Assembly: GCA_016178055.1 (NCBI GenBank) | Contig: JACOUC010000035.1 | Span: 77,325 to 141,324, forward strand | From: Chlamydiota bacterium | GTDB taxonomy: Bacteria > Auribacterota > JACPWU01 | Direction: 5' to 3' | Length of the DNA: 64,000 nt | Shown: positions 35,604 to 54,186 of the stretch, piece by piece | How the letters are laid out: each line of letters starts with the position of its first letter | How positions within the stretch are numbered: the stretch's first letter is position 1 | The notes under the pieces: generated by a model | Database searches by the model: none | What the model was told of the DNA's origin: nothing | What the model saw: only the letters and a program-made list of their open reading frames with translations | Made by a program: the position numbers and the translations under genes

Positions 35604-35811
35604 ATTCCAAGGGCTCCTTTACAATTTGATCCCAATATTTTTCTATCCAGGCAACAACACCTCCAACACCTTCATTCAAAGAGATTTTATTTGACCATCC
35701 TAATGTCTTTCTCGCCTTCGTCGAATCAATCACATAAGCTTGATCTTGTCCCAAGCGCTCCGGTGCAACAACCGTAACATCCTCAAAAGATTTTCCTAAA
35801 ACAAATGTCAC
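35587..35811 (-). pseudogene. Orphan C-terminal fragment of an NDP-sugar 4,6-dehydratase/epimerase.
   Basis: ...VAPERLGQDQAYVIDSTKARKTLGWSNKISLNEGV... is a dehydratase C-terminus. A second copy of the same 3' end is found at 38272..38424. Confidence 0.55.
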
Positions 35812-36620
35812 GCAACCATTCGTGGGGGCTTATTTCCAGGAACAAGAAGCCTATTATTTTTTTTTAAAACCTTCAATTCATCAATGATAGGCGCCCAATA
35901 GATACGATCCCTTCTTCGTGATTCTTCTATTTCCAATGCCATTTCTTGAGAAGCCTCTTTAAGATGTACCGCTTTTCTATGATCCTGTAGCAATGCTTGT
36001 AAACACAGAGATAAGCATTTTCTAGAAAGATGTGCACCTATTGTTTTAGCTGTTTCATCCGACTGAAGGTAATCAAGTATATCCTCAACCTCAAAACTAT
36101 TTTTTAATATCCATTTCCAGTCATTCATTTTCAATTTTCTTTCAGAAAGATTCCTGGATTCGATTCGAACAAGATTTGAAATGATCGGGTAGTCTTCCAA
36201 ACGTCTCGTTTTTTTTATTTCCACCAAATCTCTTATTGCAACTACAGGAATTTTGCCCCAATCTGTCATTGGGTATTTTACACGCTTGAAAGAATCATCA
36301 TAATCCCCAACCCGAGGGGCTACTCCCATAACATCCAAAAACCAAAAAGGAATATTTTTGTCTTCATCTGGAATCTGAAAATGAAAACCATGCCCTTGAG
36401 AGATCCATTTCATTGAAATGGGCGGCGTTAATTTGTATATCACTGCACCCACACTTCCAAGCACCTTTAGAAATCTGTTCCAGTTCTCTTTCACTGGTTG
36501 AACCCACAGATCAATATCTTCTGAAAAGGTGGCGGCTCCATAAATCACAGAAGCCTGCCCGCTAATCAACATATAAGAAACGCCTGAAATATTAAGGTCT
36601 TGGAAAAATCTTTTTATCAT
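35808..36620 (-). CDS. Nucleotidyltransferase-like hypothetical protein (paralog family A/B/C, with 47300..48082 and 53349..53939).
   Basis: ISGQASVIYGAATFSEDIDLWV resembles a minimal NTase G[GS]...D.D motif. IPVVAIRDLVEIKKTRRLEDYPI is shared with 47300..48082. Confidence 0.5.
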   Translation of the reverse strand: MIKRFFQDLNISGVSYMLISGQASVIYGAATFSEDIDLWVQPVKENWNRFLKVLGSVGAVIYKLTPPISMKWISQGHGFHFQIPDEDKNIPFWFLDVMGVAPRVGDYDDSFKRVKYPMTDWGKIPVVAIRDLVEIKKTRRLEDYPIISNLVRIESRNLSERKLKMNDWKWILKNSFEVEDILDYLQSDETAKTIGAHLSRKCLSLCLQALLQDHRKAVHLKEASQEMALEIEESRRRDRIYWAPIIDELKVLKKNNRLLVPGNKPPRMVA

Positions 36621-36894
36621 GGATTTCCTCTATGTTTTTGAGTCTTAGGCGAAGCGCACAAGAACGGCGAAGCCTTCCTCGAGCCGTCATTTTCTGCCAA
36701 GCAGTTCTCTGAAATGTCCCAATAAGCGATTCATTAAGGTATATCATTTTTCTCATGTTTTGAATTACTCGTCCCTGCTTTAATTTACGAGACAGTGTTT
36801 CGTGAATTGAAGCAATTCTGGATAACACCCAAAGGTTTAAGACGACTCTTATCCACCGCCACTCCTTTTCGGCTTCTTATCCCGTCAAGACCGA

Positions 36895-37077
36895 TCAAAG
36901 TGCTTCATGAATGATGGGGTCCATTGACTTACTAAGTTTCGCCAGCATCCAAAGGTCTTTAGAAGTGGCGACCGAATTAACGCGAATGTTTCCAAATTCC
37001 AATGTTTCGGACAGCAGTTGGGTTCTTAAGAAGAAAATATATTTGGCACGGTCATAGGGCTGTTTAAAATCCATCAA
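36895..37077 (-). CDS. Small hypothetical ORF with an ATGA overlap to the YhcG stop.
   Basis: 60-aa ORF only. Weak. Confidence 0.25.
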   Translation of the reverse strand: MMDFKQPYDRAKYIFFLRTQLLSETLEFGNIRVNSVATSKDLWMLAKLSKSMDPIIHEAL

Positions 37078-38108
37078 TTTTTCATCTCCTCTAGAAGCTG
37101 GCTTTTCAGTTCTTTTTCAGGAGGTAAAATTTTCTTAAGATCTGATGGAATTTTATTTGTTAAATGATATTGAGACACACCCATAGGGTTCTTAACACTT
37201 CGAAGGGCATATTCTACAACGATATTTTTCTTCTCGGCGCAAAGGATAATACCAATGGAAGGATTTTCATCTTTGAAACGCACTTTATCATTCAATAAAT
37301 GAAGATAAAAATCCATTTTCCCTGCATATTCAGGCTGAAATTTTCCTGTTTTCAGCTCAATGGCAACAAGGCATTTGAGCTTTCGGTTAAAGAAAAGCAA
37401 ATCTATGAAATATTCTTCCCCGTCTATCTCAAGCCGGTATTGATTACCGATAAATGAAAACCCGGCACCAAGCTCAAGAATAAAATGTTTCATTTTTTCA
37501 ATAAGCCGTTTTTCAAGCTCCCGCTCCACAAAAGGTCTGGTTATCCCAAGAAAATCAAGGTTGTAGACGCTTTTAAGTGATTCATCGGCCTGTTCTGCCA
37601 AATATGCTGGTAAAACTTTCTCGTAATTGTGTTGTTTTTTCTTCAAGTGGAGTCGATAGGCATCAGCTTTGATTTGATTCAAAAGAACATTTCTTGACCA
37701 TCCTAATTTGGATGATTCGTTAATATAATATTCCCGTTCTTTGAGATCCTTAATTTTCTGCATAATAAGAATATTATGACCCCATGGAATTTCTGGCACA
37801 AGCTGTGCCAGTTTTACATCATCCTTGTATTCAAGATAAAACATTCGCATCCGCCATAGATTATCCGGTGAAAAGCCTTCCAAACTTGGATACTCACGGT
37901 TAAGGTCATGGGATAATTGTTCAACAACCCTTTGCCCCCATTTATATTTTTCCTGGCGCTCAACAATGCTCTTGCCAATATCCCAGTATAGTTTAATAAG
38001 ATCTTTATTAATCGAGCGTGCGGAACCAATGCGGGCAGAAACAATGCGTGATTTGATTTCATGCAGGAATTGACCATAGGCTTTTGAAGTGATCTCGCCA
38101 GATTTCAT
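37074..38108 (-). CDS. YhcG/DUF1016 family protein, second copy.
   Basis: FIDLLFFNRKLKCLVAIELKTGKFQPEYAGKMDFY. About 45% identical to 26924..27979. Confidence 0.8.
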   Translation of the reverse strand: MKSGEITSKAYGQFLHEIKSRIVSARIGSARSINKDLIKLYWDIGKSIVERQEKYKWGQRVVEQLSHDLNREYPSLEGFSPDNLWRMRMFYLEYKDDVKLAQLVPEIPWGHNILIMQKIKDLKEREYYINESSKLGWSRNVLLNQIKADAYRLHLKKKQHNYEKVLPAYLAEQADESLKSVYNLDFLGITRPFVERELEKRLIEKMKHFILELGAGFSFIGNQYRLEIDGEEYFIDLLFFNRKLKCLVAIELKTGKFQPEYAGKMDFYLHLLNDKVRFKDENPSIGIILCAEKKNIVVEYALRSVKNPMGVSQYHLTNKIPSDLKKILPPEKELKSQLLEEMKN

Positions 38109-38271
38109 TCAAATACTCCTTGATTTCCCATAAATGCGAAGGTACATTCGTCCTTCACCCCCAGATGTTTCGTCCAGCTAATTTCTTCAACCAGTGGTTG
38201 GAGATTTGCGTTTTTTTGACATGCATCATCTCCTGCTTCAGACACATCACTCATAATCAGATTTTTGAAAT

Positions 38272-38940
38272 TAGGGCTTGTGAACATAATCCAAAGGCTC
38301 CTTCGTAACTTGATCCCAAAATTGATCAATCCAATTCACAACCCCTTTAAGACCTTCTTCGAGAGAAATTCTTGAAGACCACCCTAAAGTTTTCCTCACT
38401 TTTGTCGAATCAATCACATAAGCTTTATCTTGTCCCAAAGGCAGCGTAGGGAGTCGAGGGATTCATGGGAGAAGTCTCTGTCACATTCCCCTCACAGGTT
38501 CCATAAACCTCGGGAGAAGAAATATGTACATATCGCTTCAAATATTTCTTATCTTTGAGATGATGAATTAATTGCGCCAAGGCCACGGTATTGGTCTGAA
38601 ACCAATGATGAGGATTTTCCCAACTTGGAGCCACTTCGCTTTGCGCTGCAAAATTAACGATGTATTCTGGCTGAAACTGATCCAAAGTTTCTAAAATACG
38701 CGACATGTCTTTATTAAAATCCAATTGATGAAATTTAAAATTCCCATTTACAGAGTGGCGTTTATAGGGCAAAAAAAGCTCCGTCTTTTCTGGAGAACGG
38801 CTCGCCCCCATCACTTCGAAACGCCCTTCCTCTAAAAGCAAATCTATAAAATCACTTCCAGAGAAAGAATTGCTTCCAAGGACTGCAACCTTTTGTCTTC
38901 TGTGTTCTGTCTTCTGTATTCTGTCTTCTGTATTCTGCAT
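38272..38940 (-). pseudogene. NDP-sugar 4,6-dehydratase gene with a large internal deletion and frameshift.
   Basis: The N-terminal 171 codons (VLGSNSFSGSDFIDLL...PYAA) stop at 38425. The C-terminal ~45 codons (LGQDKAYVIDSTKVRKTLGW...) continue in another frame, and about 130 central residues are absent. Confidence 0.6.
38893..38940. repeat. Imperfect 7-bp (CTGTNTT) / 14-bp tandem repeat, ~3 x 14 bp, at the 5' end of the dehydratase pseudogene.
   Basis: ttgtcttctgtgtt ctgtcttctgtatt ctgtcttctgtatt ctgcat read directly from the sequence. Confidence 0.6.
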
Positions 38941-38942
38941 TT

Positions 38943-41798: not shown

Positions 41799-42179
41799 CT
41801 ATTTCACTAACGCGTGAGGAAAATTTGGACTTTCCGGGTTAACCACAAGCTTGCGATGAGCGGGGGATACGATTAAATCCATATCCTCCATGGGCACAGC
41901 TCCCAACAGAACTTCATCACCTATCACAAGGGCCCCAACAAAACAATTACGATTCTCAAATATTACCTCTACAGGTCCAACATACGAAACCAGATGCCGT
42001 TTTCCGTCAGCAGTCGTCACTTCCCTTTTGTTATTTTCCTCGAGCTTCAACTGCAACGCAACATGTTCCGGAATACAAAGCGTTAAGGCGCCTGTATCCA
42101 CCATGGCCTTTGTTAATACCACCTTTAACTTTGGCAACCGTGGATTTTTAAGTTGAATTTCTGCATGGATATAACCCAT
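41799..42179 (-). CDS. Retropepsin-like (clan AA) aspartic protease domain protein.
   Basis: VDTGALTL D-T-G-A catalytic motif in a 126-aa protein. Paralog of 48917..49279. Confidence 0.55.
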   Translation of the reverse strand: MGYIHAEIQLKNPRLPKLKVVLTKAMVDTGALTLCIPEHVALQLKLEENNKREVTTADGKRHLVSYVGPVEVIFENRNCFVGALVIGDEVLLGAVPMEDMDLIVSPAHRKLVVNPESPNFPHALVK

Positions 42180-42257: not shown

Positions 42258-43841
42258 TTATTTCAAAAGGGTTTCCATACTTTTCAGGAGTCCAATCTTC
42301 GAAATGGCCAGCCCTGTCCCCATGACACCCACCTTTTCAGCCGCCGCAAGATTACCGAGCAGCAAGGAAAGATCGGTAGGAAGGCCTCCTCCAAAGCAGG
42401 CAGACGTAATCCCGAGCAACGTGTCTCCAGCCCCAATACGGTCCACCACTTTATTTGCAAAGGGTGGACAACTTAAGAAACCCTCTTCTTCCCGATAAGC
42501 CAAAGCCCCTTTCACACCTCTGGTCATGACAACGGTTTCACATCCCATCCGGCGATAAAGTTGTTCAACCAGAACTTTTTCATCCTTGGTTCGTGTTCTA
42601 TATTCATGACGCAATTCCCCCTCGTGAATACAAACATAATCTGCTCGGGGATATTTTGAAATGGTGTGATAACCAATGTTAGAAGCATTTACCTGAGTAT
42701 TAACAGCTAAAAATTTTTTCTCCTTCATTAAAAACTCTACAATCTTCTCTGAAATTAAGCCATGCCCATAGTCTGCCACAATGATAAGGTCATGATCTGG
42801 TAAATGCTGCTTCAATTTTGAGAGAAGAACATCTTCTTCATCACTTGTGATCAGTTCATCATTGATTTCATAAACTCCGAAAAGCTTAGACTTCGTATAA
42901 GCATCCACATAACGCGTTTTCACAAGAGTCGGGGAATTGGATTTTGTGATGCAATCTAGATGAACATTGGGTTTCAGATGATTTAAAACAAAATCGTTTC
43001 GATCTCGAGTATTGCCCTCATAACTCGCAATGGTGATTTTCTGGCAAAAATCTGACAGGTGATTCGCGATCGCTAACACGCCCCCTGCATAAGCCTCTGT
43101 TTGAAGTTTTTGCATGACCAGCATCGGTTCTTTTGCAGACTTCCCAATGGCATTACAAAAAACATATTCATCTATAATGGCTTCACCGATTAAAAGAACT
43201 CTAAGACTGGATAATTGGCTCAAATATTCTCTAATGGCCTGGGAAGAATATTTCCCTTTGATCCGATCGAGATACTCCATTTGCTCTCTCGTATAAAGGG
43301 GAAAATGCTGATTTAAAAGAGCTGACGAGCTAAACGTAACATCATTCGTATACCGAATTTCTCCATTCACAAAGCGTACCGACTCCTCTTCGAGGCCAAT
43401 CATCCCCGTCACATCCTTTTGATGATCGCGATAGTCAGGCCCCTTTACATAAATATGAGGCTTCAAACACCGAATCGTTTCCACTGCGGTAGGCCATTCG
43501 TTGATGGCCACGTGATCAACAACATCTAAACTGGCGATCATTTCTGCGCGATGGTCCTGCGTAAAAACCGGGCGCATCGGACCCCTATTCACAAATCGGT
43601 CAGGCGTTAACGTGACCACCAAAATATCTCCCATGGCCTTGGCCTCTTTAAAATATCGCAGATGTCCCACATGTAATAAATCAAAGACTCCATGGCAGTG
43701 AACGATTTTTTTATCTTGCAAACGAAGGGCTTCAAGCTCTTGCGCTAAAACATCAAGGGTTTTAATTTTTCCATCTTTCAGTTGTAACATAAACTTATCC
43801 ACGGAGATGATCTTGAATACAATCTGCAATTTTCGAAACAA
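42258..43841 (-). CDS. Bifunctional sugar nucleotidyltransferase / PfkB-family kinase (HldE/RfaE-like, but with domain order reversed).
   Basis: N-terminal cytidylyltransferase-like HxGH (CHGVFDLLHVGHLRYF) and C-terminal ribokinase-family DRIGAGDTLLG. Confidence 0.8.
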   Translation of the reverse strand: MFRKLQIVFKIISVDKFMLQLKDGKIKTLDVLAQELEALRLQDKKIVHCHGVFDLLHVGHLRYFKEAKAMGDILVVTLTPDRFVNRGPMRPVFTQDHRAEMIASLDVVDHVAINEWPTAVETIRCLKPHIYVKGPDYRDHQKDVTGMIGLEEESVRFVNGEIRYTNDVTFSSSALLNQHFPLYTREQMEYLDRIKGKYSSQAIREYLSQLSSLRVLLIGEAIIDEYVFCNAIGKSAKEPMLVMQKLQTEAYAGGVLAIANHLSDFCQKITIASYEGNTRDRNDFVLNHLKPNVHLDCITKSNSPTLVKTRYVDAYTKSKLFGVYEINDELITSDEEDVLLSKLKQHLPDHDLIIVADYGHGLISEKIVEFLMKEKKFLAVNTQVNASNIGYHTISKYPRADYVCIHEGELRHEYRTRTKDEKVLVEQLYRRMGCETVVMTRGVKGALAYREEEGFLSCPPFANKVVDRIGAGDTLLGITSACFGGGLPTDLSLLLGNLAAAEKVGVMGTGLAISKIGLLKSMETLLK

Positions 43842-44179
43842 TCTTCATGCATTGGATACAAACCCTCTCGTCTGGCTCGAAGTTTGGAAGGACACTGCTG
43901 AGAGGATATTTTGATGGAAGATAAATCGAAATCTAGTAAATCACATTCATCTTCGGAAACAACTATTTCTTTTCCTGCTTTTCTAAGCAACATTATTAAT
44001 TCATGTATGTTATGAGTCTTCTTTAAACCCATCGACAATTCTATACACAACGCCTTGAGATATTTTTCTGAAGATTGTTGTAAGTTTTGAAGACAGGGGT
44101 TGTAAAGATGGCTTTTAAGCAATATCTTTGCTGCCTCAAGATTCTCTTCAGCATATTTGGAGCCAATCATGAGTTTCAT
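43778..44179 (-). CDS. HEPN-domain protein (toxin-like partner of the upstream nucleotidyltransferase).
   Basis: 133-aa helical protein with a KKTHNIHEL R/K-x4-6-H-like motif, overlapping the MNT gene by 4 nt. Confidence 0.55.
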   Translation of the reverse strand: MKLMIGSKYAEENLEAAKILLKSHLYNPCLQNLQQSSEKYLKALCIELSMGLKKTHNIHELIMLLRKAGKEIVVSEDECDLLDFDLSSIKISSQQCPSKLRARREGLYPMHEDCFENCRLYSRSSPWISLCYN

Positions 44180-44481
44180 CGTTCATAGACAATCTCCCCC
44201 CTATTTATTTCCGATAAAAAGAAATCATTTTGTACATGGGGTCTTACCGGGATGATGTCTACAGCGATTTTAAGAAGCACAGGACGTATTTGCTTTCTAT
44301 ATTTTAAAGCTAGTTGTAGATATGATTTGTTGCTGCTTTGAAATATTGCTACATCCATGTCATGCGGATTTTCTGATTTTAAAAATGAACCAAATATAAC
44401 AATACGCTGAATCTCTTTGTCGGATGAAAGACAGGAAACAAGTTCTTTCGTCAATTCTTTTTTTAAAGGGGCCGTAAACAT
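44176..44481 (-). CDS. Minimal nucleotidyltransferase (MNT) domain protein.
   Basis: IVIFGSFLKSENPHDMDVAIF (GS...D.D). Confidence 0.7.
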   Translation of the reverse strand: MFTAPLKKELTKELVSCLSSDKEIQRIVIFGSFLKSENPHDMDVAIFQSSNKSYLQLALKYRKQIRPVLLKIAVDIIPVRPHVQNDFFLSEINRGEIVYER

Positions 44482-44543
44482 ATTTTTCTAATCCACGTTT
44501 GCCAAAAATTACTCCATTCTCCTAAAACAAACTTCCTAATCTG

Positions 44544-46970: not shown

Positions 46971-47171
46971 TCACTTCGAAACTAACTCTCGAATCGTTTT
47001 AGCCTTGATTCTGCCCAATCTGGGTATTTGCATTAACTCTTCCTCTGTTGTAAGAGCAATGTCATATTTCTTCGTCAGAATATCCCCTATGCCAGCATCG
47101 TTCTCTCGAAAATCCATTCTGATATTCAACGGCAAATACCCCATGAGAGTATGAATTCTTATCGTATTCAT
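46971..47171 (-). CDS. Small helix-hairpin-helix-like protein (hypothetical).
   Basis: ELMQIPRLGRIKAKTIRE HhH-like motif. Overlaps another small ORF (47062..47340), so the boundaries are uncertain. Confidence 0.3.
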   Translation of the reverse strand: MNTIRIHTLMGYLPLNIRMDFRENDAGIGDILTKKYDIALTTEEELMQIPRLGRIKAKTIRELVSK

Positions 47172-47299
47172 TTGTTAATTGTGCTTGCTCTAGCCACATA
47201 TCCCAATAGGCAAAGAGCTCTTCCTCCGATAAATTGCGCAAATCAAGATCTTCTTCACTTAAGAATTCGTCTTTTATTTTTTCCATCATCAAATCCTCC

Positions 47300-48082
47300 T
47301 CAAACTGAAAACGGCAGCACCCCAGATGCCCGAGTTGCAATTAGATGATGCGCTTCAAGAAGAGGATATCCTCGCACCTCTTTCTCCACTTGAATCCACA
47401 TCTTTGACCATTCCTCAGCCGCTTTCATGTAGGCCTCTAGTCGCGCTTCATTTGCATGAATAAGATGTCGTTTCTCCTCATCAAGTGCTTGTTCAAGAGC
47501 TAACCTGCCTTGCGAAATTTTACCCAGGAGAGGGCGTTCGATTACAAGCTCTAACAAAATTTCAGGATGTTTTGCTGCAAGCATCATAATATCTCTTGCA
47601 CTCCTTGAGTAAAGCATTTGATCCTTTGCACTGGAGAGCATCCGAGCCAGTTCCCCAATCACAGCATAATCCTTCTCCCGATTCGTCTCTTTTATTTCTA
47701 TCAAGGTCTTAATATCCACAAAAGGAATATCCTTTCCTTCTTGTTCTACCCATAGTCTATCCAAAGCAACTTGGGGTATTCTCGGGGGACGCGTAACAAA
47801 ATCCGTCCTTACTCGTAAATTGTTATAGCCAAATTCCAGATGAGAACTCCAACCACCCGATAGCCATCGAACATCCAAGGGTGCTCCAAATCGGTATTGT
47901 GCCCCATACTGGGACAAAACTTGCAAAACATGCCCCAGGGTCTCAAGTTCTTCTTTGAGTATCCAATCACCATCCTTACTCATCACAGCAAGATGGTGTA
48001 ACACGACGGCCTGACCCGAGGAAAGAACTGCCCGCAGTTTTCCTTCATTAAATCGTTCCGTCAATTCAACATAGATATTCAT
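47300..48082 (-). CDS. Nucleotidyltransferase-like hypothetical protein (paralog B, probably a degenerate active site).
   Basis: LSSGQAVVLHHLAVMSKDGDWIL and IPFVDIKTLIEIKETNREKDYAV align with 35808..36620. Confidence 0.5.
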   Translation of the reverse strand: MNIYVELTERFNEGKLRAVLSSGQAVVLHHLAVMSKDGDWILKEELETLGHVLQVLSQYGAQYRFGAPLDVRWLSGGWSSHLEFGYNNLRVRTDFVTRPPRIPQVALDRLWVEQEGKDIPFVDIKTLIEIKETNREKDYAVIGELARMLSSAKDQMLYSRSARDIMMLAAKHPEILLELVIERPLLGKISQGRLALEQALDEEKRHLIHANEARLEAYMKAAEEWSKMWIQVEKEVRGYPLLEAHHLIATRASGVLPFSV

Positions 48083-48110
48083 TTACACCCCATCCACAAA
48101 AAATCGGTCC
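48083..48110. repeat. Degenerate copy 4 of the wzm 3'-end motif (TTACACCCCATCCACAAAAAATCGGTCC).
   Basis: Aligns with 50005..50036. Confidence 0.5.
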
Positions 48111-48116
48111 ATCTTT

Positions 48117-48539
48117 TCAAACTTCCAAGAACACCGTCTTAATCCCCAATGCATTTGCGGATTTTGAAAAGGCCCGGTCTGCGGTCAAGGGGGTTAAATC
48201 TTCTGACACGGCAACGGCCAAATGCAGCGCATCGAAACTTCTCAGAGGCGTGCTAAACTCTCCAAGCCAATCCCTGGCCAGCCGATAATGGTGAGTCTCA
48301 ATGGCAACCTTCAAATAAAAACTTCCCTCAGCATGAGAAAGATATCTTGCAAGAACTCGCCTGCCATCTGTGGACTGCATTTGTCCTTCACGAATCTTTC
48401 TGGACACCGCTGAAAATAATTCTACCTCCGTCAAAGGGCTGATGACAGATTGTCCCCTCATGAGATAATGTTCCACTTTATCGCTCAAAGCTTCAGGGCA
48501 ATAGTAGGCGACCAAAACGCTCGTATCGATATAAAACAT
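48117..48539 (-). CDS. vapC: PIN-domain ribonuclease toxin (VapC-like).
   Basis: MFYIDTSVLVAY and the DALHLAVA acidic residues. Confidence 0.8.
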   Translation of the reverse strand: MFYIDTSVLVAYYCPEALSDKVEHYLMRGQSVISPLTEVELFSAVSRKIREGQMQSTDGRRVLARYLSHAEGSFYLKVAIETHHYRLARDWLGEFSTPLRSFDALHLAVAVSEDLTPLTADRAFSKSANALGIKTVFLEV

Positions 48540-48790
48540 TAACAGCGTTCCTCACCTCTGGCTCGAATCACAAGAGAACTTAAGGATTCACCCTTCATGC
48601 GAATCGTCGAGCGAAACGCCTTTAGACTTGGCAGATGCCGAACTCCTCTTTGAGGAGGAATGAGACGAGCCACCTCCTTACCATGACGAAGAATACTCAC
48701 CTCATCCCCTTCCTGAACCCGGTTTAGCAAGGAAGCAAACTGATTCCTCGCCTCTTTAACATTGATATTCACGATTGTCCTCCTCTCCAA
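48539..48790 (-). CDS. Type II antitoxin (Phd/YefM- or VapB-like).
   Basis: 83-aa protein with a 1-nt overlap to the PIN gene. N-terminal KEARNQFASLL...ARLIP. Confidence 0.65.
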   Translation of the reverse strand: MERRTIVNINVKEARNQFASLLNRVQEGDEVSILRHGKEVARLIPPQRGVRHLPSLKAFRSTIRMKGESLSSLVIRARGEERC

Positions 48791-48854: not shown

Positions 48855-48886
48855 TTACACTACATCCGCAAAAAAACGCTCCGTTC
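48855..48886. repeat. Copy 3 of the wzm 3'-end motif (TTACACTACATCCGCAAAAAAACGCTCCGTTCC).
   Basis: Aligns with 50005..50036. Confidence 0.55.
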
Positions 48887-48916
48887 CTTTCTGATATTCA
48901 AAATGTGGTACCTCCC

Positions 48917-49279
48917 CTACACCGCGAGTGTCGTCGTTGCAACAAATCGATGCGCAATATTATCTACCATGACCCCAAAACCTTCTAACGTACGCACTCC
49001 AAGAAGATGCATATCCCCCTTTTCAGCAAAGACAACTTCGTCAATGGTTTCAAAGCCCTCAACACGCAAAACCGCATAGCCCACTTCTCTTTCGACAAGT
49101 TGCTTGGTTGCCGTTTGAAAACTTCGTTTTCGAAGAGGTAAAACCCCTATTCCCATCAGGACCTCTGCCGGTAACCAGGTCAGCTCTGAGCCTGTATCTA
49201 CGAGCACCTCAAGAGGCAAGGTGCTCTTTTTCAAATCAGATGGATGAAGCGCAATCACATTGACTTTAAATATACTCAT
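48917..49279 (-). CDS. Retropepsin-like (clan AA) aspartic protease domain protein, second copy.
   Basis: VDTGSELTWLP D-T-G-S motif in a 120-aa protein. Confidence 0.55.
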   Translation of the reverse strand: MSIFKVNVIALHPSDLKKSTLPLEVLVDTGSELTWLPAEVLMGIGVLPLRKRSFQTATKQLVEREVGYAVLRVEGFETIDEVVFAEKGDMHLLGVRTLEGFGVMVDNIAHRFVATTTLAV

Positions 49280-49361
49280 ACACAGACCTCCCTCACCAGC
49301 ATTTTAGCATGTATCAGATTCCTGGACTCGATTTAGCAAAGAAGCAAATTGACCCCATTTT

Positions 49362-49388
49362 TTACACCACATCCGCAAAAAATAGTTC
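49362..49388. repeat. Copy 2 of the wzm 3'-end motif (TTACACCACATCCGCAAAAAATAGTTC).
   Basis: Aligns with 50005..50036. Confidence 0.55.
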
Positions 49389-49411
49389 TTTTCTTCTAAA
49401 GTAAGACATAT

Positions 49412-49786: not shown

Positions 49787-49919
49787 AGGCATATGCACTT
49801 GACTTAAAGATGTCGTCCATTTGTAGTCACCCCATTTATGGGGCCATGCATGGATTGCCCGATAAATCGGGCGACTACGCTTGACGGATCAAGAATACTT
49901 GAGTCAAGTGTATATGCCT
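49787..49919. repeat. 133-bp nested palindromic element. Outer inverted repeat AGGCATATGCACTTGACTT/AAGTCAAGTGTATATGCCT, with a 56-bp core GTAGTC-[hairpin]-CATGCATGG-[hairpin]-GACTAC.
   Basis: Read directly. Inner hairpins are GCCCCATTTATGGGGC and GCCCGATAAATCGGGC. Related to the element at 62492..62774. Confidence 0.55.
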
Positions 49920-50004
49920 TTTTTATTTTAATAAAACAATCCCTGTTTTCACCAAGTTTCGCCTTTGTCCATTCATGCTATTGATCCTGAGCACTCGCCT
50001 ATCC

Positions 50005-50036
50005 TTACACCACATCCGCAAAAAAGCGCTCCGTCC
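50005..50036. repeat. Master copy of the motif TTACACCACATCCGCAAAAAAGCGCTCCGTCC, which is the last 9 codons plus stop of wzm.
   Basis: Encodes RTERFFADVV* of the Wzm permease. Confidence 0.6.
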
Positions 50037-50859
50037 TACGAAAATAAAAAAGTCCGCCCACAAAAATAATAACGGCCACAGCAACAGAAATTCCTAAAGA
50101 GCCCCAATGAATGGGTTGATGTGCGAGGAAACAGGCCCGATGGGCCTCGATTAAACCACTCATGGGATTGAGCATCAAAAGCCAGCGATATTTTTCTGGC
50201 ACCATTGAAGCGGGATAAATGACCGGCGTTGCGAAGAGCATCAACTGAATAAAAAAGGGAAGCGCATATTGAATGTCCCGATATTTCACATTAAGCGCGG
50301 AAAGCCAAAGCCCCCACCCTGTCGCAGCGATCATCGAGAAGAAAACAATCGCGGGGAGCATGAGAAAAGACACACTGGGAGGAAAGCCGTAGTAAAACAT
50401 CATGCCCAGGAGAATAACCACCGCAATGGCATAGTCCATCAATCCCGAAAGAGTGGCTGAAAGAGGGATCACAAGTCGTGGGAAATACACCTTGGTCAAG
50501 AGATTTGAACTCCCCACGAGACTCGCCCCTGAGTGAGAGAGGGCTCCTGAAAAATAAGTCCAAAGAAGAAGCCCTGAATAAGAAAAAATAGGATAAGGAA
50601 CGCCATCCGAGGGAAGGCGGGCAATTTTTCCAAAGAAAATGGTGAATACGACCATGCTAAAGAAAGGTTGGATAATCGCCCAAAGAGCCCCCAAAACCGT
50701 TTGCTTATACCTGACCTTGATATCCCGCCAGGTCAGAAAATAGAGAAGCTCCCTAAAATCCCACAAGGCCTTCCAATCAATGGGAACCCATCCCTTGGAA
50801 GAACGAATGATGATTTTGGGAATAGAAGAAACCGATGAAGCTGATATTTCCTGAGCCAT
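50005..50859 (-). CDS. wzm: ABC-2 type polysaccharide exporter permease (Wzm-like).
   Basis: About 6 predicted TM helices and ABC-2 family features in a 284-aa protein. Confidence 0.85.
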   Translation of the reverse strand: MAQEISASSVSSIPKIIIRSSKGWVPIDWKALWDFRELLYFLTWRDIKVRYKQTVLGALWAIIQPFFSMVVFTIFFGKIARLPSDGVPYPIFSYSGLLLWTYFSGALSHSGASLVGSSNLLTKVYFPRLVIPLSATLSGLMDYAIAVVILLGMMFYYGFPPSVSFLMLPAIVFFSMIAATGWGLWLSALNVKYRDIQYALPFFIQLMLFATPVIYPASMVPEKYRWLLMLNPMSGLIEAHRACFLAHQPIHWGSLGISVAVAVIIFVGGLFYFRRTERFFADVV

Positions 50860-50890
50860 TATTCTCTTTTCATCTTTTTGAATTCATGAT

Positions 50891-53296
50891 CTATTTCTTG
50901 AGCGCCTCTGCCAGAACATTCCAAACGTGGTTCAATTTGTTCAAAACTTCCTCATTAGGAAGCGGAATTTTTAAAATAGGCCGCCCGGTGTTCTGATCCT
51001 TTTCAACAAAAGATGAAAAAGAAGTTGATCCCGAAGAAGATTTTGAAATGACGTCTCTCAATTTTTCGAGCAGTGTAACACCCGCCGTCATCAGTTCATG
51101 CATGGGTTGAAGGGGCGCCTCAGCTCCCTCGGATTCTTGTTCCTCTCTTTCAAACTCTGAACCGGTGTCTTGCGTGACCTCTTTAGGCTCAAGCTTGGGG
51201 GCGACCCCAGAAGAAGACTTTGCCACAAGCTCCACCGTCTTCATAAAGCGCTTAAACCTGTCTTCTCCCATAAAGACCTCGCTTTGACCCCCATCCAAAA
51301 CCCCTTCGAAAAGGGATCTCTTAAATTTGAGAAGTTTCAGCAACTCCTCTTCAATGGTCCCTGAAGAGATAAAGTGAACCACATGAACAGGTTTCTTTTG
51401 CCCCAGCCGATGAACCCTCGCGATACGCTGCTCCAAAACAGCCGGGTTCCAGGGACAATCCAAATTGATGACCATGGAGGCACATTGTAGATTGAGCCCC
51501 ACACCCCCTGCGTCTGTGGAGAGAAACACTCTTGCCTTAGGATCGTGATGAAACCGGTGCAAGAGATCCTTGCGCTGCCGACTCGGCACCCCGCCATGCA
51601 AAGATTCAAATCCAACTCCAATCTCTTCGAGTCGTTCCGCTACCAAACGCGTCATCCTTTCCCACTGACTGAAGATCACGACCTTTTCTTCCTCTCGCTC
51701 AAATACCTCTTTTAGAAATGTCATCATCTCATCAATTTTAGGCCCTTTGCGAGTCTTCTCATCCAAAATAAACGTGTTATTACTCACCATGCGCATGGAA
51801 TTGAGGCAAATCATCAAGATCTGCCGATCCTTTTCAGACAAAAATTTAAACCGCCGCCATTTGTTGACCAAACGACAAACGGTCTCGTAATTTTCCTGAT
51901 GAATTTTCCATTGTTCTTCTGTGACCGGAACAAAAAAATGCTTCTCGATTCGGGGCGGCAACTGCTCAAGCACCTCTTTTTTGTGACGACGGATGAGAAT
52001 AGAAGAGAGGCTCGAGCCAATTTCATGCAAGGACCGGTAGCCCACCACCTTTCCATTTTCATCCAAAACTTGATGCTTCTCCAAAAATCGAAAGAGCGGC
52101 CCCAATTTAAAACGATCCACAAATTCCACAATCGAGTGAAGTTCTTCAAGACGGTTCTCCAGAGGCGTTCCCGTAAGAACAAGCGCATAAGGAGATGCGA
52201 TTCTCTTAATATTTCGAGCCGTTCTGGTTTTCCAATTTTTAATGCGCTGGGCCTCATCCAAAATCACCAAATCCGGGGAAAATTTTTGAATAACCTCTAA
52301 ATCATTTTGAACCGCATGATAGGTCGCGATCTTAAAAAATTCAGGCCCCAAATATTGCTCTCTTCTCTTAAGAAAAGATCCCTCAATGGCGCATGCGGAC
52401 CGCGTTGTAAACTTTTCTATCTCCGAGAGCCATTGATACTTTAAAGACGTTGGGCAAATGACAAGAACCTTCTCAATCCCAAATTCTTTCGCCATCAACT
52501 CGGCTGCCCCCATCGCTTGAATCGTCTTCCCTAACCCCATGTCATCCGCGATCAGGGCACGGCCTGCCTTTGCCGCAAAGAGAATGCCTTCCTTCTGATA
52601 GGGATAAAGCGAGGTCTTAAGAAGCGCATCCAAACGAGGGTCATGAACCCCTTGTGAATACCGCTCCTCTATCAAACGCCGTCTGCGACGATCCTCCCTC
52701 ATCTCAACAATAAATTGAAACGCATCAGAGTAACAGCGGAATTGCGGATCGAGTCTTAGTACCGCCTCCAGGAATTTTTCGAAGTGATCGTAGGCCTGGG
52801 GGAGAAGGACATGATTCTCATCAAAATATCCTGAGGCGAGCTTCTTCAAAGAATCGATCTGGCGAAGTCCTATCCTCAAGACAACTTTCCTTTCCATCCC
52901 ATACCTCAAAGAGATAGAAGAATAAGACGGCGTAAAACCCTGCTTAAAAATGGCAGAGGCCCCGCGCTTTCTTTTGAGCTGATGAAGCGTGTACTCAATA
53001 TGCTTACAGGTGCCCAACGTATTGATTTTAAAATCGGGGCAGGAACAATAATTAAGACCGATCTTTTCGCTTCGAATCGCGACCTTGTAAACTTTTTGAT
53101 TTTGAGGATTCGTCACCTCAAAATCAGAAAAGACAGGATGCCCATTGAGATTCTTAACCTTGAAATTCTGATCCAACGCATACTGCCGCCGCAAGGCCTT
53201 CTGCCAATCCTCATAAGAGAGATTGGCCGGCTTAAAATAATAGGGGACTCTTTCTGATGACGTGATACGAGATTTCTTAGATTTTTTAGCGATCAT
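50891..53296 (-). CDS. SNF2-family helicase with an N-terminal SWIM zinc finger.
   Basis: CSCPDF...CKH SWIM, DDMGLGKTIQ, DEAQRIKN and a helicase-C region with HRLGQKKPV. Confidence 0.85.
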   Translation of the reverse strand: MIAKKSKKSRITSSERVPYYFKPANLSYEDWQKALRRQYALDQNFKVKNLNGHPVFSDFEVTNPQNQKVYKVAIRSEKIGLNYCSCPDFKINTLGTCKHIEYTLHQLKRKRGASAIFKQGFTPSYSSISLRYGMERKVVLRIGLRQIDSLKKLASGYFDENHVLLPQAYDHFEKFLEAVLRLDPQFRCYSDAFQFIVEMREDRRRRRLIEERYSQGVHDPRLDALLKTSLYPYQKEGILFAAKAGRALIADDMGLGKTIQAMGAAELMAKEFGIEKVLVICPTSLKYQWLSEIEKFTTRSACAIEGSFLKRREQYLGPEFFKIATYHAVQNDLEVIQKFSPDLVILDEAQRIKNWKTRTARNIKRIASPYALVLTGTPLENRLEELHSIVEFVDRFKLGPLFRFLEKHQVLDENGKVVGYRSLHEIGSSLSSILIRRHKKEVLEQLPPRIEKHFFVPVTEEQWKIHQENYETVCRLVNKWRRFKFLSEKDRQILMICLNSMRMVSNNTFILDEKTRKGPKIDEMMTFLKEVFEREEEKVVIFSQWERMTRLVAERLEEIGVGFESLHGGVPSRQRKDLLHRFHHDPKARVFLSTDAGGVGLNLQCASMVINLDCPWNPAVLEQRIARVHRLGQKKPVHVVHFISSGTIEEELLKLLKFKRSLFEGVLDGGQSEVFMGEDRFKRFMKTVELVAKSSSGVAPKLEPKEVTQDTGSEFEREEQESEGAEAPLQPMHELMTAGVTLLEKLRDVISKSSSGSTSFSSFVEKDQNTGRPILKIPLPNEEVLNKLNHVWNVLAEALKK

Positions 53297-53348
53297 AAAA
53301 CACCCCTGCTATCAATAGTCAACACACCCTGAGAATATAAATTCTTAT

Positions 53349-53939
53349 TTAAACACCCAACCCCGCTTCGCAAAATGCCTTTTCAAGCAAATCATCTACC
53401 TTAAGTTTTTTTGCCCAATCTCTAAGATAAGGGACCTGAAGTTCTTTACCTTGCACCTTCATCACACCGAGAACATCCGACCACTGACGATCTGAAATTC
53501 TACCCGACATGTTATACCATTCTAGCTTATTAAGAATAACATCCTCAGCGGAGGCAAAATAGCACTCTAACCCGCCAGATTCCTGTCCCAAAACATCTTT
53601 TTCTTTTCTTCGAAAAGCCTCATAATCGTATTCACGGTCCTTTAAAATAAAAATATCTATCTTCATCATTGTTTGCAAATGTATCAGGTTAAATGAAGAC
53701 CTGTTTTGAATAGCCTCGACCATGGATTCTTCCGAAATATAGTATTGATCTGATAAGCGCTTAATTAAAGGTTGAATCTGTGCCTTGCAAATGTTAGCTA
53801 CTAGATCAATATCTAGGGTCGTACGTGGCACACCACAAACAGAACTAGCCACTGAACCCCCTATTTGATAAGAAACATCCAACGCCTCAAAAGCAGTGAT
53901 CACGTTTCGAAGCGCCAAAAGAATATCCGAATTATCCAT
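53349..53939 (-). CDS. Nucleotidyltransferase-fold protein (paralog C).
   Basis: QIGGSVASSVCGVPRTTLDIDLV matches the minimal NTase motif. Confidence 0.6.
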   Translation of the reverse strand: MDNSDILLALRNVITAFEALDVSYQIGGSVASSVCGVPRTTLDIDLVANICKAQIQPLIKRLSDQYYISEESMVEAIQNRSSFNLIHLQTMMKIDIFILKDREYDYEAFRRKEKDVLGQESGGLECYFASAEDVILNKLEWYNMSGRISDRQWSDVLGVMKVQGKELQVPYLRDWAKKLKVDDLLEKAFCEAGLGV

Positions 53940-54186
53940 GTTTGGCTATTTGCTGATATCGCTTCACACGTTCGGATAATTCGGGGCCATAATTCAACGA
54001 CAGAAAAAGAAGATTCCTTTCCTCCGATGCCATCTCGGGATTCCGTCTGGCGATCGCTCTTCTGGAAAGTTGATTTATGAAATGAGTCAAAGAACACATG
54101 ATTTCAAAACGACGAGGCCTTCCAGCCTCCCGCAAAAGCTTGATCTGCACCCTCTCTGCGTCAGGACTCGTATCGGTAAATTTCAA
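53932..54186 (-). CDS. Small hypothetical protein overlapping the NTase start by 8 nt (possible cognate partner).
   Basis: 84-aa ORF with no motif. Confidence 0.35.
   Translation of the reverse strand: MKFTDTSPDAERVQIKLLREAGRPRRFEIMCSLTHFINQLSRRAIARRNPEMASEERNLLFLSLNYGPELSERVKRYQQIAKHG

What the first reader, a model, noticed from the sequence alone, without database searches (positions are those of the whole stretch)
35808..54186. Three paralogous NTase-like proteins, each with small partner ORFs. Candidate uncharacterised two-gene module.
Proteins at 35808..36620, 47300..48082 and 53349..53939 share a GG/SGQ-x-V...D-I-D-L-type minimal nucleotidyltransferase N-terminus. A and B also share a distinctive IP.V.I..L.EIK.T.R.KDY.I block. 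Each sits in an insertion context next to very small ORFs. They are a YhcG island with 60/78-aa ORFs, a cassette array with 92/66-aa ORFs, and an overlapping 84-aa ORF next to the SNF2 helicase. Paralog B appears to have lost the catalytic aspartates. This looks like an AbiE-like or novel toxin-antitoxin or defence family that is not among the classic HEPN/MNT pairs also present.
Basis: inference. Interest (0 to 1): 0.6.

Follow-up and report, generated by a model that had tools for sequence, protein, structure and literature searches.

The report
Three MenT-like nucleotidyltransferase two-gene modules
Three small, self-contained gene pairs, each an enzyme resembling the tuberculosis tRNA-poisoning toxin MenT1 plus its own tiny partner protein, are inserted in a sugar-biosynthesis cluster of an environmental Chlamydiae genome. 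One pair is a relative of a known toxin-antitoxin system, and the other two belong to a large family that has not been described.

Summary
All three ORFs are real and intact. A (35808-36620) and B (47300-48082) are true paralogs: BLASTP E=3e-14 and profile-profile E=2.6e-42. They belong to a large unannotated family of about 265 aa with 3,219 50%-identity clusters. C (53349-53939) belongs to a different family of about 195 aa.

All three connect to the M. tuberculosis toxin MenT1 (AbiEii superfamily). MenT1 is the best structural match for both models. Family profiles hit MenT1 at E=0.002 and E=0.0046. The (S/T)-x-D-x-D, third Asp and Lys motifs are invariant or nearly so in all three families. 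B has not lost its aspartates.

Each enzyme has one conserved partner:
- A has an upstream Arg-rich protein of about 54 aa, overlapping A's start by 29 nt. It is present in 78 of 78 testable relatives.
- B has a downstream acidic protein, DEFLSEEDLDL…YSHGVF. It is present in 62 of 68 testable relatives.
- C has the upstream 84-aa ORF. This is homologous to the antitoxin MenA1 (PF18993) and is fused to the enzyme in some genomes.

The 60-aa and 66-aa ORFs do not belong to the A and B modules. The nearest neighbours outside the modules are effectively random, and homology to close relatives stops at the module ends.

Best reading: these are three toxin-antitoxin cassettes. C is MenAT1-like. A and B are new variants with novel partners. 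Toxicity has not been tested.

The parts
35808..36620 (-). Protein A: a 270-aa MenT-like nucleotidyltransferase of the A branch. It has an N-terminal NTase domain and a C-terminal helical domain.
   Evidence: ORF and translation. Identical to HYS07_05030 of a Chlamydiae MAG, with 641 homologs, all named 'hypothetical' where a source gives a name and none with a precomputed Pfam domain among the 120 listed. AF2 model pLDDT 96.4. Best PDB fold match is MenT1, 8an4/8an5. Invariant residues are S20 G21 Q22 A23 S33 D35 D37 G76 D96 P102 R103 L132 K136 T138 R140 D143 W242.
36592..36756 (-). A partner: a small Arg-rich protein of 54 aa counted from ATG 36756. The listed 78-aa ORF runs to GTG 36828. 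It ends ...WQKMTARGRLRRSCALRLRLKNIEEIHDKKIFPRP*.
   Evidence: The same ORF family lies directly upstream in 78 of 78 A-family genome loci that have enough upstream sequence. The consensus is W..LTP.ERLRRSW.LR.RL.D...VHDRKLFP.P. Nucleotide homology with the 84%-identical relative L174 starts exactly at 36756, and L174's partner starts MMRKK.
36592..36620 (-). A 29-nt out-of-frame overlap between the end of the A partner and the start of A. It is read in both frames: HDKKIFPRP* in one and MIKRFFQDL in the other.
   Evidence: Among the ORFs picked upstream in 73 related loci, 50 overlap by 29 nt and 12 by 26 nt. Sequence.
47300..48082 (-). Protein B: a 260-aa MenT-like nucleotidyltransferase of the B branch. 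It is catalytically intact (S35-K-D37-G-D39, D94, K131, T133, R135, D138).
   Evidence: 2,661 homologs; invariant residues; hhalign against the A family, E=2.6e-42.
47062..47289 (-). B partner: a small acidic protein beginning MMEKIKDEFLSEEDLDLRNLSEEELFAYWDMWLEQAQLTNEYDKNSYSHGVF.... The probable start is ATG 47289, with the Shine-Dalgarno sequence GGAGGA at 47294-47299 directly after B's stop. The listed 92-aa ORF starts at TTG 47340. Its C-terminal tail beyond about 47128 lies outside the segment conserved with L175.
   Evidence: A same-strand ORF with the motif F[LM]SEED...YSHG lies downstream in 62 of 68 B-family loci with enough sequence. It is called as a gene overlapping the NTase stop in L171-L173, L175 and L176. 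Sequence. Homology with L175 ends at 47128.
53349..53939 (-). Protein C: a 196-aa MenT1-like nucleotidyltransferase. Its residues T41-L-D43-I-D45, K138 and D155 correspond to MenT1 T39, D41, D43, K137 and D152.
   Evidence: 696 homologs; invariant residues; AF2 pLDDT 91. Foldseek top four hits are MenT1/MenAT1, E=7.6e-7, TM 0.61-0.67, full length. The family profile hits 8an4 at E=0.0046. Of 56 relatives, 36 weakly hit DUF6036 and 14 weakly hit AbiEii.
53932..54186 (-). C partner: an 84-aa MenA1 (Rv0078B)-like small helical protein with a TTG start. It overlaps the start of C by 8 nt (ATGGATAA).
   Evidence: It is homologous to the N-terminal 85-95 aa of the fused 282-293-aa proteins P0153, P0221, P0222 and P0236. 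An upstream gene of 81-96 aa is present in 4 of 4 loci examined. Four of 8 family members hit PF18993 Rv0078B, best E=1.6e-4. Sequence.
48083..48125 (-). Cassette junction: a degenerate copy of the last codons of the wzm-like gene (...MDRFFVDGV*). It lies exactly between the PIN stop codon and B's ATG. It is one of four such copies; the others are at 50005-50047, 49362-49404 and 48855-48897.
35585..35754 (-). A 3'-end fragment of a broken epimerase/dehydratase gene. It is a direct repeat (75% identity) of 38269-38438. The two copies flank the block that holds YhcG, the 60-aa ORF, the A partner and A.

Best explanation
The region holds three independent, autonomous toxin-antitoxin-type cassettes. 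Each consists of a nucleotidyltransferase of the MenT/AbiEii fold and its own small protein partner.

C module. C and the 84-aa ORF are a divergent MenAT1 (Rv0078B-Rv0078A) system. [quoted passage not shown] The upstream helical protein would bind it and induce inactivating auto-phosphorylation of T41.

A and B modules. A and B are two branches of one large uncharacterised family of about 265 aa. They share the same catalytic signature: S-x-D-x-D, a third Asp, and a K-x-T-x-R-x-x-D motif. They also carry an extra C-terminal helical domain. Each branch has recruited a different obligate partner.
- The A branch has an upstream, translationally overlapped Arg-rich protein of about 54 aa.
- The B branch has a downstream, strongly acidic protein of about 50-75 aa with an invariant YSHGVF motif.
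I infer that the enzymes are the toxins, probably modifying the 3' ends of tRNA or other RNA, and that the small proteins are the antitoxins.

Shown here: homology, fold, motif conservation, obligate pairing, and cassette-like mobility.
Inferred: toxicity, substrate, and which partner neutralises which.
For: Fold.
- The AF2 models of A (pLDDT 96.4) and C (pLDDT 91) both have MenT1/MenAT1 (8an4/8an5) as the top Foldseek PDB hit.

Sequence.
- A broad A/B profile hits MenT1 as its only significant PDB match, E=0.002. In that alignment S33, D35, D37 and K136 align to MenT1 T39, D41, D43 and K137.
- The C-family profile hits MenT1 at E=0.0046.
- The A/B profile against the C profile gives hhalign E=2.1e-5.
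- The MenT1 residues are the mutationally defined active-site and phospho-acceptor residues (PMC10435456, PMC11375011).

Partners.
- The A partner is present in 78 of 78 testable loci, with a fixed 29- or 26-nt overlap in most of the loci measured.
- The B partner is present in 62 of 68 testable loci and is called by gene finders.
- The C partner is present in 4 of 4 loci, fused to the enzyme in four proteins, and matches PF18993 Rv0078B in 4 of 8 family members.

Autonomy and mobility.
- Nucleotide homology with close relatives covers exactly the two genes: 36756-35799 for A and 48082-47128 for B.
- The 150 nearest outside neighbours fall into 125 Pfam families, and none recurs in more than 3 loci.
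- The modules sit inside operons. In this window the B module is one of several cassettes between wzm and wzt. In L170 the C-type pair lies between oxidoreductase subunit genes.
- They lie beside other toxin-antitoxin pairs: Phd-PIN, HEPN-MNT and DUF2442 in the window, MNT-HEPN in L175, and a DUF6036 pair in L176.
Against: - No experiment has been done, and no A/B family member has been characterised.
- A, B and C themselves match no Pfam, NCBIfam or PADLOC model. Relatives match AbiEii, DUF6036 or DUF2204 only below threshold.
- For A the structural matches to MenT1 are modest (E about 2e-4, TM 0.46-0.63). They are only slightly better than the matches to TM1012, LnuA and ANT(2'')-Ia.
- The A and B partners resemble nothing known, so their antitoxin role rests on analogy alone.
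- In the A branch both the enzyme and the partner are basic, with median charges of +11 and +7.6. That is unlike the usual pairing of opposite charges.
- The window's own A partner departs from its family at three strongly conserved positions (P to A, E to G, W to C), whereas its close relative L174 keeps E and W.
Confidence: 0.6

Rival explanations
1. Roles are reversed, as in type VII HEPN-MNT systems. The nucleotidyltransferase would be the antitoxin or regulator that nucleotidylates or phosphorylates the small protein, and the small protein would be the toxin or effector.
For: - In the HEPN/MNT pair of this same window the NTase is the antitoxin (established knowledge of HepT/MntA).
- The B partner has an invariant Y47-S48-H49-G50 motif and an invariant S11. 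These could be modification sites.
- The A partner is a very basic Arg-rich peptide, and such peptides can be toxic.
Against: - The closest structural and sequence relative is MenT1, which is a toxin.
- The enzymes keep the MenT phospho-acceptor Ser/Thr.
- The partners have no HEPN motif or HEPN Pfam hit.
- The A partner has no invariant Tyr, Ser or Thr.
- The C partner is homologous to a proven antitoxin.
Confidence: 0.1
2. The modules act mainly as abortive-infection or anti-phage defence systems, like AbiE, rather than as addiction or stress modules. The enzyme would be released on infection.
For: - The AbiEii superfamily includes the AbiE abortive-infection system.
- The modules are located in variable cassette arrays together with other toxin-antitoxin and defence-type genes.
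Against: - No PADLOC model matches.
- No relatives of C were found on viral contigs.
- The nearest neighbours across 150 positions are mostly housekeeping genes, not defence genes.
- This reading concerns biological role, not mechanism, so it is compatible with the best explanation.
Confidence: 0.15
3. A and B are small-molecule nucleotidyltransferases, either antibiotic-modifying enzymes like LnuA and ANT(2'')-Ia or glycan-modifying enzymes like LicD and FKRP. The small protein would be an accessory subunit, and the enzymes would have a functional link to the surrounding polysaccharide cluster.
For: - LnuA, ANT(2'')-Ia and FKRP appear among the fold matches.
- All three genes sit in a sugar-biosynthesis cluster.
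- Some relatives are also next to glycosyltransferase or Wzz-type genes (L005/L006, L167, L176).
Against: - Across 150 neighbours no polysaccharide or resistance family recurs.
- In the window the A and B modules interrupt genes or operons rather than completing them. An epimerase gene is broken, and wzm and wzt are separated.
- Obligate small partners and the MenT-type S/T-x-D-x-D plus Lys signature are not features of Lnu or ANT enzymes.
- FKRP matches are weak (TM about 0.3).
Confidence: 0.05

Closest known systems
MenAT1 (Rv0078B antitoxin / Rv0078A MenT1 toxin) of Mycobacterium tuberculosis; PDB 8an4, 8an5, 8rr5
   Same: For C:
- Same size: 196 aa against 197 aa.
- Same fold over the full length (TM 0.61-0.67).
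- Profile-level sequence similarity (E=0.0046).
- Equivalents of T39, D41, D43, K137 and D152.
- A small upstream helical partner that belongs, at family level, to PF18993 Rv0078B.

For A and B:
- The NTase domain is the best structural hit and the only significant PDB sequence hit (E=0.002).
- The same S/T-x-D-x-D and Lys residues are present.
   Different: - C is only about 17% identical to MenT1. C itself reaches no Pfam threshold, and its own partner copy does not hit PF18993.
- A and B are about 70 aa longer, with an added C-terminal helical domain.
- A and B have SGQA in place of GG.
- A and B use partners unrelated to MenA1. The B partner is downstream and acidic. The A partner is Arg-rich with a fixed 29-nt gene overlap.
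AbiEii / DUF1814 (PF08843) toxins with COG5340 AbiEi antitoxins (AbiE, MenAT3, MenAT4)
   Same: [quoted passage not shown] The mechanism established for MenT3 and MenT4 is nucleotide addition to tRNA 3' ends. Both are two-gene operons.
   Different: No member here passes the PF08843 threshold. There is no AbiEi or COG5340 winged-helix antitoxin. Partners are 50-90 aa instead of about 200-300 aa.
DUF6036 (PF19502) and DUF2204 (PF09970) uncharacterised nucleotidyltransferases
   Same: Of 56 C-family members, 36 give weak DUF6036 hits and 21 give weak DUF2204 hits. A few A/B members do too.
   Different: The hits are below the curated cut-offs and absent for the window's own proteins. These Pfam families have no assigned function or partner.
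HEPN-MNT (HepT-MntA, type VII toxin-antitoxin system)
   Same: A minimal NTase paired with a small protein. A genuine example lies in the same window at 43778-44481.
   Different: There the NTase is about 100 aa and is the antitoxin, and the partner is a HEPN RNase with an Rx4-6H motif. None of the three partners here is HEPN-like.

Membership tests
MenAT1 (Rv0078B/Rv0078A) - applied to C and the 84-aa ORF | Toxin has the MenT1 fold | tested here: met
   The top four Foldseek PDB hits are 8an5/8an4, E 7.6e-7 to 3.2e-6, TM 0.61-0.67, about 195 aligned columns.
MenAT1 (Rv0078B/Rv0078A) - applied to C and the 84-aa ORF | Active-site and phospho-acceptor residues T39, D41, D43, K137, D152 | tested here: met
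   The HMM alignment puts C-family R-a-T-l-D-v-D on MenT1 R-F-T-R-D-V-D. T41, D45, K138 and D155 are invariant and D43 is at least 90% conserved in 56 sequences. The K138 and D155 equivalences rest on position, not on superposition.
MenAT1 (Rv0078B/Rv0078A) - applied to C and the 84-aa ORF | Small upstream antitoxin of the Rv0078B family (PF18993) | tested here: met
   Four of 8 partner-family members hit PF18993 (best E=1.6e-4), and the L170 partner has a precomputed hit. The window's own copy gives no hit alone but aligns at 35-45% identity with those that do. A profile of 8 sequences did not reach the MenA1 chain in the PDB.
MenAT1 (Rv0078B/Rv0078A) - applied to C and the 84-aa ORF | Toxicity of the NTase and its neutralisation by the small protein; tRNA 3' extension | not testable with these tools
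   Needs expression assays and tRNA labelling or sequencing.
AbiEii / DUF1814 (PF08843) - applied to A, B and C | Match to the Pfam model above its gathering score | tested here: not met
   No hit for A, B or C at E<=0.1. Only sub-threshold hits appear in relatives: 11 of 72 A family (best E=0.033), 14 of 56 C family (best E=0.0055), none in the B family.
AbiEii / DUF1814 (PF08843) - applied to A, B and C | Pol-beta-type motifs I and II (hG[GS]...DxD plus a third acidic residue) and the C-terminal Lys motif | tested here: met
   Across a diverse A/B set, A23, D37, G76, D96, L132, K136, T138, R140 and D143 are invariant. G21, Q22, S33 and D35 are at least 90% conserved. They align to the MenT1 motifs. 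Motif IV was not examined.
AbiEii / DUF1814 (PF08843) - applied to A, B and C | Cognate COG5340 (AbiEi-type) antitoxin gene next to the toxin | tested here: not met
   The adjacent conserved genes are 50-90-aa proteins with no Pfam match. No recurrent larger neighbour was found.
HEPN-MNT (type VII toxin-antitoxin system) | Partner is a HEPN-domain protein with an Rx4-6H motif | tested here: not met
   No HEPN hit for any partner or partner family. The invariant residues of the partners include no Rx4-6H pair.
CBASS CD-NTase or other known defence NTases | Match to a PADLOC defence model, or a cGAS/DncV-like fold as best hit | tested here: not met
   No PADLOC hits for A, B or C. CdnC appears only at rank 41 for C, E=0.035.
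Integron gene cassettes (considered for the wzm-wzt cassette array) | attC recombination sites at cassette boundaries and an intI integrase | not tested
   The boundaries are copies of the 3' end of the wzm coding sequence, not recognisable attC palindromes by eye. No attC model or integrase search was run.

The most novel reading that the evidence does not exclude
The A- and B-branch partners may not be passive MenA1-style blockers. They could represent two new ways of controlling a MenT-like enzyme. One possibility is an acidic protein that mimics tRNA, or is itself modified at its invariant Tyr-Ser-His-Gly motif. Another is an Arg-rich RNA-binding adaptor that is translationally locked to the enzyme through a 29-nt stretch read in both frames. 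Separately, the cassettes may be captured one after another at the 3' end of host genes (wzm, and an epimerase gene) by an undescribed mechanism that lacks an integrase in cis and leaves a decaying copy of the gene's last codons at every junction.
Probability: 0.15. Interest if true: 0.75.

Novelty: new variant of a known kind. Interest (0 to 1): 0.5.

Why it matters
- MenT/AbiEii toxins are a current focus in toxin-antitoxin biology, covering tRNA 3'-end modification and antitoxin-induced auto-phosphorylation.
- The published survey found only 21 MenA1 homologues (PMC10435456). Here the C-type family has about 700 clusters at 90% identity.
- The A/B superfamily has 3,219 clusters at 50% identity and no annotation in Pfam, NCBIfam or PADLOC.
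- A and B provide two new candidate antitoxin classes for the same catalytic core, with opposite gene order and opposite charge. This is a ready-made comparison for asking how unrelated small proteins silence one enzyme fold.
- The families would also be worth adding to toxin-antitoxin and defence annotation resources.
- The cassette array, bounded by copies of the end of wzm, bears on how small toxin-antitoxin cassettes accumulate inside operons.

Tried and rejected
- Single-sequence scans of A, B, C and all small ORFs against Pfam, NCBIfam and PADLOC found nothing meaningful.
- Single-sequence PDB searches with A and C found nothing meaningful.
- Narrow family profiles of A and of B against the PDB found nothing. 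Only the broadened profile A9 reached MenT1.
- Partner profiles A5 and A6 against Pfam and the PDB found nothing.
- BFVD, the viral structure library, gave no significant match.
- A viral-contig scan for the C family found none.
- The promoter and terminator scan gave counts no higher than shuffled sequence, so it is uninformative.
- Fusions of A/B enzymes with their partners were looked for among longer homologues. None were found; the extra N-terminal residues look like mis-called starts.
- A programmed frameshift joining the A partner to A was considered and rejected. A's frame is +1 relative to the partner. The AAAAAG stretch would favour a -1 shift into the wrong frame (inference).
- The idea that the SNF2 helicase is linked to C was rejected because no SNF2 gene lies next to C homologues.
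- Further copies of any module in the window were sought by hmmsearch of all six profiles against every ORF. None were found.
Full report
**Source and setting**

Protein A is 100% identical to HYS07_05030 and B to HYS07_05110 of a 'Chlamydiae bacterium' MAG. Nearly all long ORFs between 32.6 and 57 kb lie on the minus strand. They form a sugar and polysaccharide biosynthesis cluster: a radical-SAM enzyme, an SDR, epimerases/dehydratases, E1/transketolase-like subunits, an HldE-like kinase/cytidylyltransferase, a Wzm-like ABC-2 permease, a Wzt-like ATPase and a SIS isomerase. Small selfish-looking genes are interspersed in this cluster:
- a YhcG nuclease
- HEPN-MNT (43778-44481)
- Phd-PIN (48117-48790)
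- DUF2442
- two retropepsin-like ORFs
- the three genes of the finding

**Checking the observation**

The three ORFs are as described.
- A and B are genuine paralogs: 27% identity over 227 aa, E=3e-14. Their family profiles align end to end with hhalign probability 100, E=2.6e-42.
- C shows no significant pairwise similarity to A or B (E=0.042 over 41 aa and E=0.35).
- The shared block IP.V.I..L.EIK.T.R.KDY.I is real. It holds the most conserved residues of the A/B superfamily, with L132, K136, T138, R140 and D143 invariant in 60 diverse members.
- The claim that B lost its catalytic aspartates is wrong. SKDGDW in B aligns with SEDIDLW in A. D37 and D94 are invariant and D39 is at least 90% conserved in 49 B-family sequences.

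**What the enzymes are**

None of the three matches Pfam, NCBIfam, PADLOC or the PDB as a single sequence.

Family sizes:
- The A family has 641 clusters at 90% identity. All are 'hypothetical', about 265 aa, and come mostly from the PVC group (Planctomycetes, Verrucomicrobia, Chlamydiae and relatives), Elusimicrobia and Myxococcota MAGs.
- The B family has 2,661.
- The C family has 696, about 195 aa.
- A profile search of 1.84 billion cluster representatives with the A-family alignment (which also contains B) found 3,219 representatives at E<=1e-3 and 551 at E<=1e-10.

Structure:
- The AlphaFold models are confident: A has pLDDT 96.4 and pTM 0.91, and C has pLDDT 91.
- For both models the best PDB match is the M. 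tuberculosis toxin MenT1 (Rv0078A; 8an4, 8an5).
- C matches over its whole length (E=7.6e-7, TM 0.61-0.67).
- A matches over its N-terminal 180 or so residues (E=2.2e-4, TM up to 0.63 on the target). Behind MenT1 come TM1012, LnuA and ANT(2'')-Ia.
- A has an additional helical C-terminal domain (helices at 143-254).

Sequence profiles agree:
- The C-family profile hits MenT1 at E=0.0046.
- A deliberately diverse A/B profile (A9) hits MenT1 as its only significant PDB match, E=0.002 over 153 profile positions.
- A9 against the C family gives hhalign E=2.1e-5, probability 77%, with all motifs in register.

Residue correspondence:

| MenT1 (paper numbering) | A | B | C |
|---|---|---|---|
| T39 (phospho-acceptor) | S33 | S35 | T41 |
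| D41 | D35 | D37 | D43 |
| D43 | D37 | D39 | D45 |
| K137 | K136 | K131 | K138 |

The MenT1 residues are the mutationally defined active-site residues and the phospho-acceptor of the auto-phosphorylation mechanism (PMC10435456 and PMC11375011, read). Relatives give recurrent but sub-threshold Pfam hits. In the C family 36 of 56 hit DUF6036, 21 hit DUF2204 and 14 hit AbiEii. In the A family 11 of 72 hit AbiEii. In the B family 3 of 49 hit DUF6036. All three proteins are therefore remote members of the MenT/AbiEii nucleotidyltransferase superfamily. A and B form one new family within it, and C is a MenT1-like family.

**The partners**

*A partner.* In 80 genome loci, 50 of the 73 upstream ORFs measured end 29 nt inside the enzyme gene and 12 end 26 nt inside it. 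A motif search finds this ORF in 77 of 78 loci with at least 200 nt of upstream sequence. The last locus, L019, has a divergent copy. Its C-terminal 40 or so residues are strongly conserved, with consensus W..LTP.ERLRRSW.LR.RL.D...VHDRKLFP.P, across genomes of widely differing phyla and composition. This conservation extends well beyond the dual-coded overlap. The window's 78-aa ORF is a member. Comparison with an 84%-identical relative (L174) places its start at ATG 36756, giving 54 aa.

*B partner.* There is no conserved upstream ORF. A same-strand downstream ORF with the sequence M..IRDEFLSEEDLDLRNLSEEEL.AYWNLWLEQAQATNDLD...YSHGVF is present in 62 of 68 loci with enough sequence. Gene callers call it in L171-L173, L175 and L176. 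It overlaps the enzyme's stop codon by 4-7 nt in L171-L173 and L175 and starts directly after the enzyme gene in L176. The window's 92-aa ORF contains it. The real start is probably ATG 47289, preceded by GGAGGA immediately after B's stop codon.

*C partner.* The 84-aa ORF aligns at 35-45% identity with upstream genes in 4 of 4 loci examined. It also aligns with the N-terminal extension of four fused 282-293-aa proteins. Four of 8 members hit PF18993 'Rv0078B-related antitoxin', which is the MenA1 family.

*Other points on the partners:*
- The A and B partners match nothing in Pfam or the PDB.
- Median charges are as follows. The A enzyme is +11 and its partner +7.6. The B enzyme is about +1 and its partner -11. 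The C enzyme is -7 and its partner +4.

**Autonomy and mobility**

- Nucleotide homology between the window and the closest relatives covers exactly the two genes and nothing else. For A it spans 36756-35799 against L174 (88% identity, 958 nt). For B it spans 48082-47128 against L175 (83% identity, 957 nt).
- I scanned 150 nearest non-module neighbours from A- and B-family loci against Pfam. They fall into 125 families, and none recurs in more than three loci. There is no third conserved gene and no functional tie to polysaccharide synthesis.
- The modules are found inside operons. Here the B module is one of the cassettes between wzm and wzt. In L170 the C-type pair lies between pyruvate:ferredoxin oxidoreductase subunit genes.
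- They also lie next to other toxin-antitoxin pairs.

**Insertion context in the window**

- The A block (YhcG, the 60-aa ORF, the A partner and A) lies within a broken epimerase/dehydratase gene. An N-terminal fragment covers roughly positions 1-165 of a full-length epimerase/dehydratase and stops inside the YxxxK motif. A fragment covering roughly positions 278-322 is present twice as a 170-nt direct repeat (75% identity) flanking the block.
- Between wzm and wzt there are four direct copies of the last codons of wzm (...YFRRTERFFADVV*). They encode YFRRKELFFADVV, YQKGTERFFADVV and MDRFFVDGV. They separate four cassettes: DUF2442, a retropepsin-like ORF, Phd-PIN, and B with its partner.
- The last copy ends one base before B's ATG. 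Divergence from the wzm 3' end increases with distance from wzm, at 0, 1 and 3 mismatches in the 21-nt core.
- In the relative L175 the B module is preceded by MNT-HEPN. It is followed by a Wzt N-terminal fragment and a Wzm C-terminal fragment. The same hot spot therefore holds different cassettes in a related genome.

**Mechanism**

The best-supported reading is three toxin-antitoxin cassettes.
- For C and the 84-aa ORF the analogy to MenAT1 is close in fold, residues and partner family. The likely mechanism is therefore addition of nucleotides to tRNA 3' ends by the enzyme, with inhibition by partner binding and partner-induced auto-phosphorylation of T41.
- For A and B the catalytic core and the phospho-acceptor Ser are conserved. 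Obligate pairing and cassette behaviour fit a toxin-antitoxin system. The substrate, the direction of toxicity and the partners' mode of action are inferred.
- The acidic B partner with its invariant YSHGVF motif, and the basic A partner, suggest two different solutions.

Rivals considered:
- reversed roles, as in HEPN-MNT
- a primary anti-phage role
- small-molecule or glycan nucleotidyltransferases

The last is contradicted by the random neighbourhoods and by the disruptive insertion sites.

**Novelty and verdict**

- C with its partner is a new, divergent member of a known system.
- A and B with their partners are new variants of the MenT/AbiEii kind. They form an unannotated but very widespread family with two previously undescribed partner proteins.
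- The claims of 'three paralogs of one module', 'B is catalytically dead', and the assignment of two of the five small ORFs are wrong.
- Interest is moderate. This is not surprising in kind, but it is concrete, testable and useful for annotation.

Noticed in passing
window 48083-48125, 48855-48897, 49362-49404, 50005-50047 (a weaker fifth copy at 44488-44530): Four direct copies of the last 10-13 codons of the wzm-like permease gene (...ERFFADVV*) bound a tandem array of small cassettes between wzm and wzt: DUF2442, a retropepsin-like ORF, Phd-PIN, and B with its partner. Divergence increases with distance from wzm, as if cassettes were added one after another at the gene's 3' end. A 65%-identical copy lies at the junction between an epimerase gene and the MNT-HEPN pair. 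I identified no integrase gene among the ORFs scanned (32.7-54.9 kb).
   Followed up: partly
window 35585-35754 and 38269-38438; N-terminal fragment 38425-38940: An epimerase/dehydratase gene is broken. The N-terminal 171 aa stop inside the YxxxK motif, and about 110 central codons are missing. The 3' end is present twice as a 170-nt direct repeat (75% identity) flanking the inserted block that holds a 74-aa ORF, YhcG, a 60-aa ORF, the A partner and A.
   Followed up: partly
window 36592-36756: The window's A partner differs from its family at three strongly conserved core positions: P to A, E to G and W to C (MTARGRLRRSC against the consensus LTPxERLRRSW). The 84%-identical relative L174 keeps E and W (MTSRERLRRSW). 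This could be early decay of the partner or a lineage-specific change. A itself keeps all invariant residues.
   Followed up: partly
window 46971-47171 and 47062-47128: The B partner in the window carries a C-terminal extension of about 23 aa that is absent from L175, where the protein ends ...YSHGVFAV*. The extension overlaps a 66-aa ORF with weak helix-hairpin-helix hits (E=0.03). The 190 nt or so between the end of the module and wzt looks like junction debris.
   Followed up: no
L175:1790-2041: In a relative with an 80%-identical B homolog, the module is followed by the first 18 codons of a wzt-like gene (MTDIAIRVEGLGKLYKIG). After that comes a Wzm C-terminus-like fragment in another frame (...LFGGLLYFNRTEKMF). 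The module is preceded by an MNT-HEPN pair instead of Phd-PIN. The same wzm/wzt hot spot therefore holds a different set of cassettes.
   Followed up: partly
L176:4070-4851: Directly downstream of a B-type module lies a second NTase pair: a 73-aa ORF and a 187-aa DUF6036/AbiEii protein. Its small partner looks different from the window's C partner and was not compared with any partner profile. Different MenT-like modules cluster together in other genomes too.
   Followed up: no
window 41799-42179 and 48917-49279: Two small retropepsin-like (gag-asp_proteas / Asp_protease_2) ORFs of 126 and 120 aa are inserted at two places in the sugar cluster. One of them is a cassette in the wzm-wzt array. 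Their function in a bacterial cassette context is unclear.
   Followed up: no
window 43778-44481: A canonical HEPN (133 aa) / MNT (101 aa) pair with a 4-nt overlap lies between an epimerase gene and the HldE-like gene. The HEPN ORF overlaps the start of the HldE-like ORF by about 64 nt.
   Followed up: no
protein P0439 (369 aa): This member of the A/B superfamily carries an extra C-terminal domain of about 110 aa (...VLKFSYQGYVRIVEPQTYG...). It is a fused variant that might hint at what these enzymes associate with.
   Followed up: no
window 50891-53296: An 801-aa SNF2-family helicase sits between C and wzm inside the sugar cluster. It is not found next to C homologues in the four other loci examined, so it is probably another independent insertion.
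   Followed up: partly
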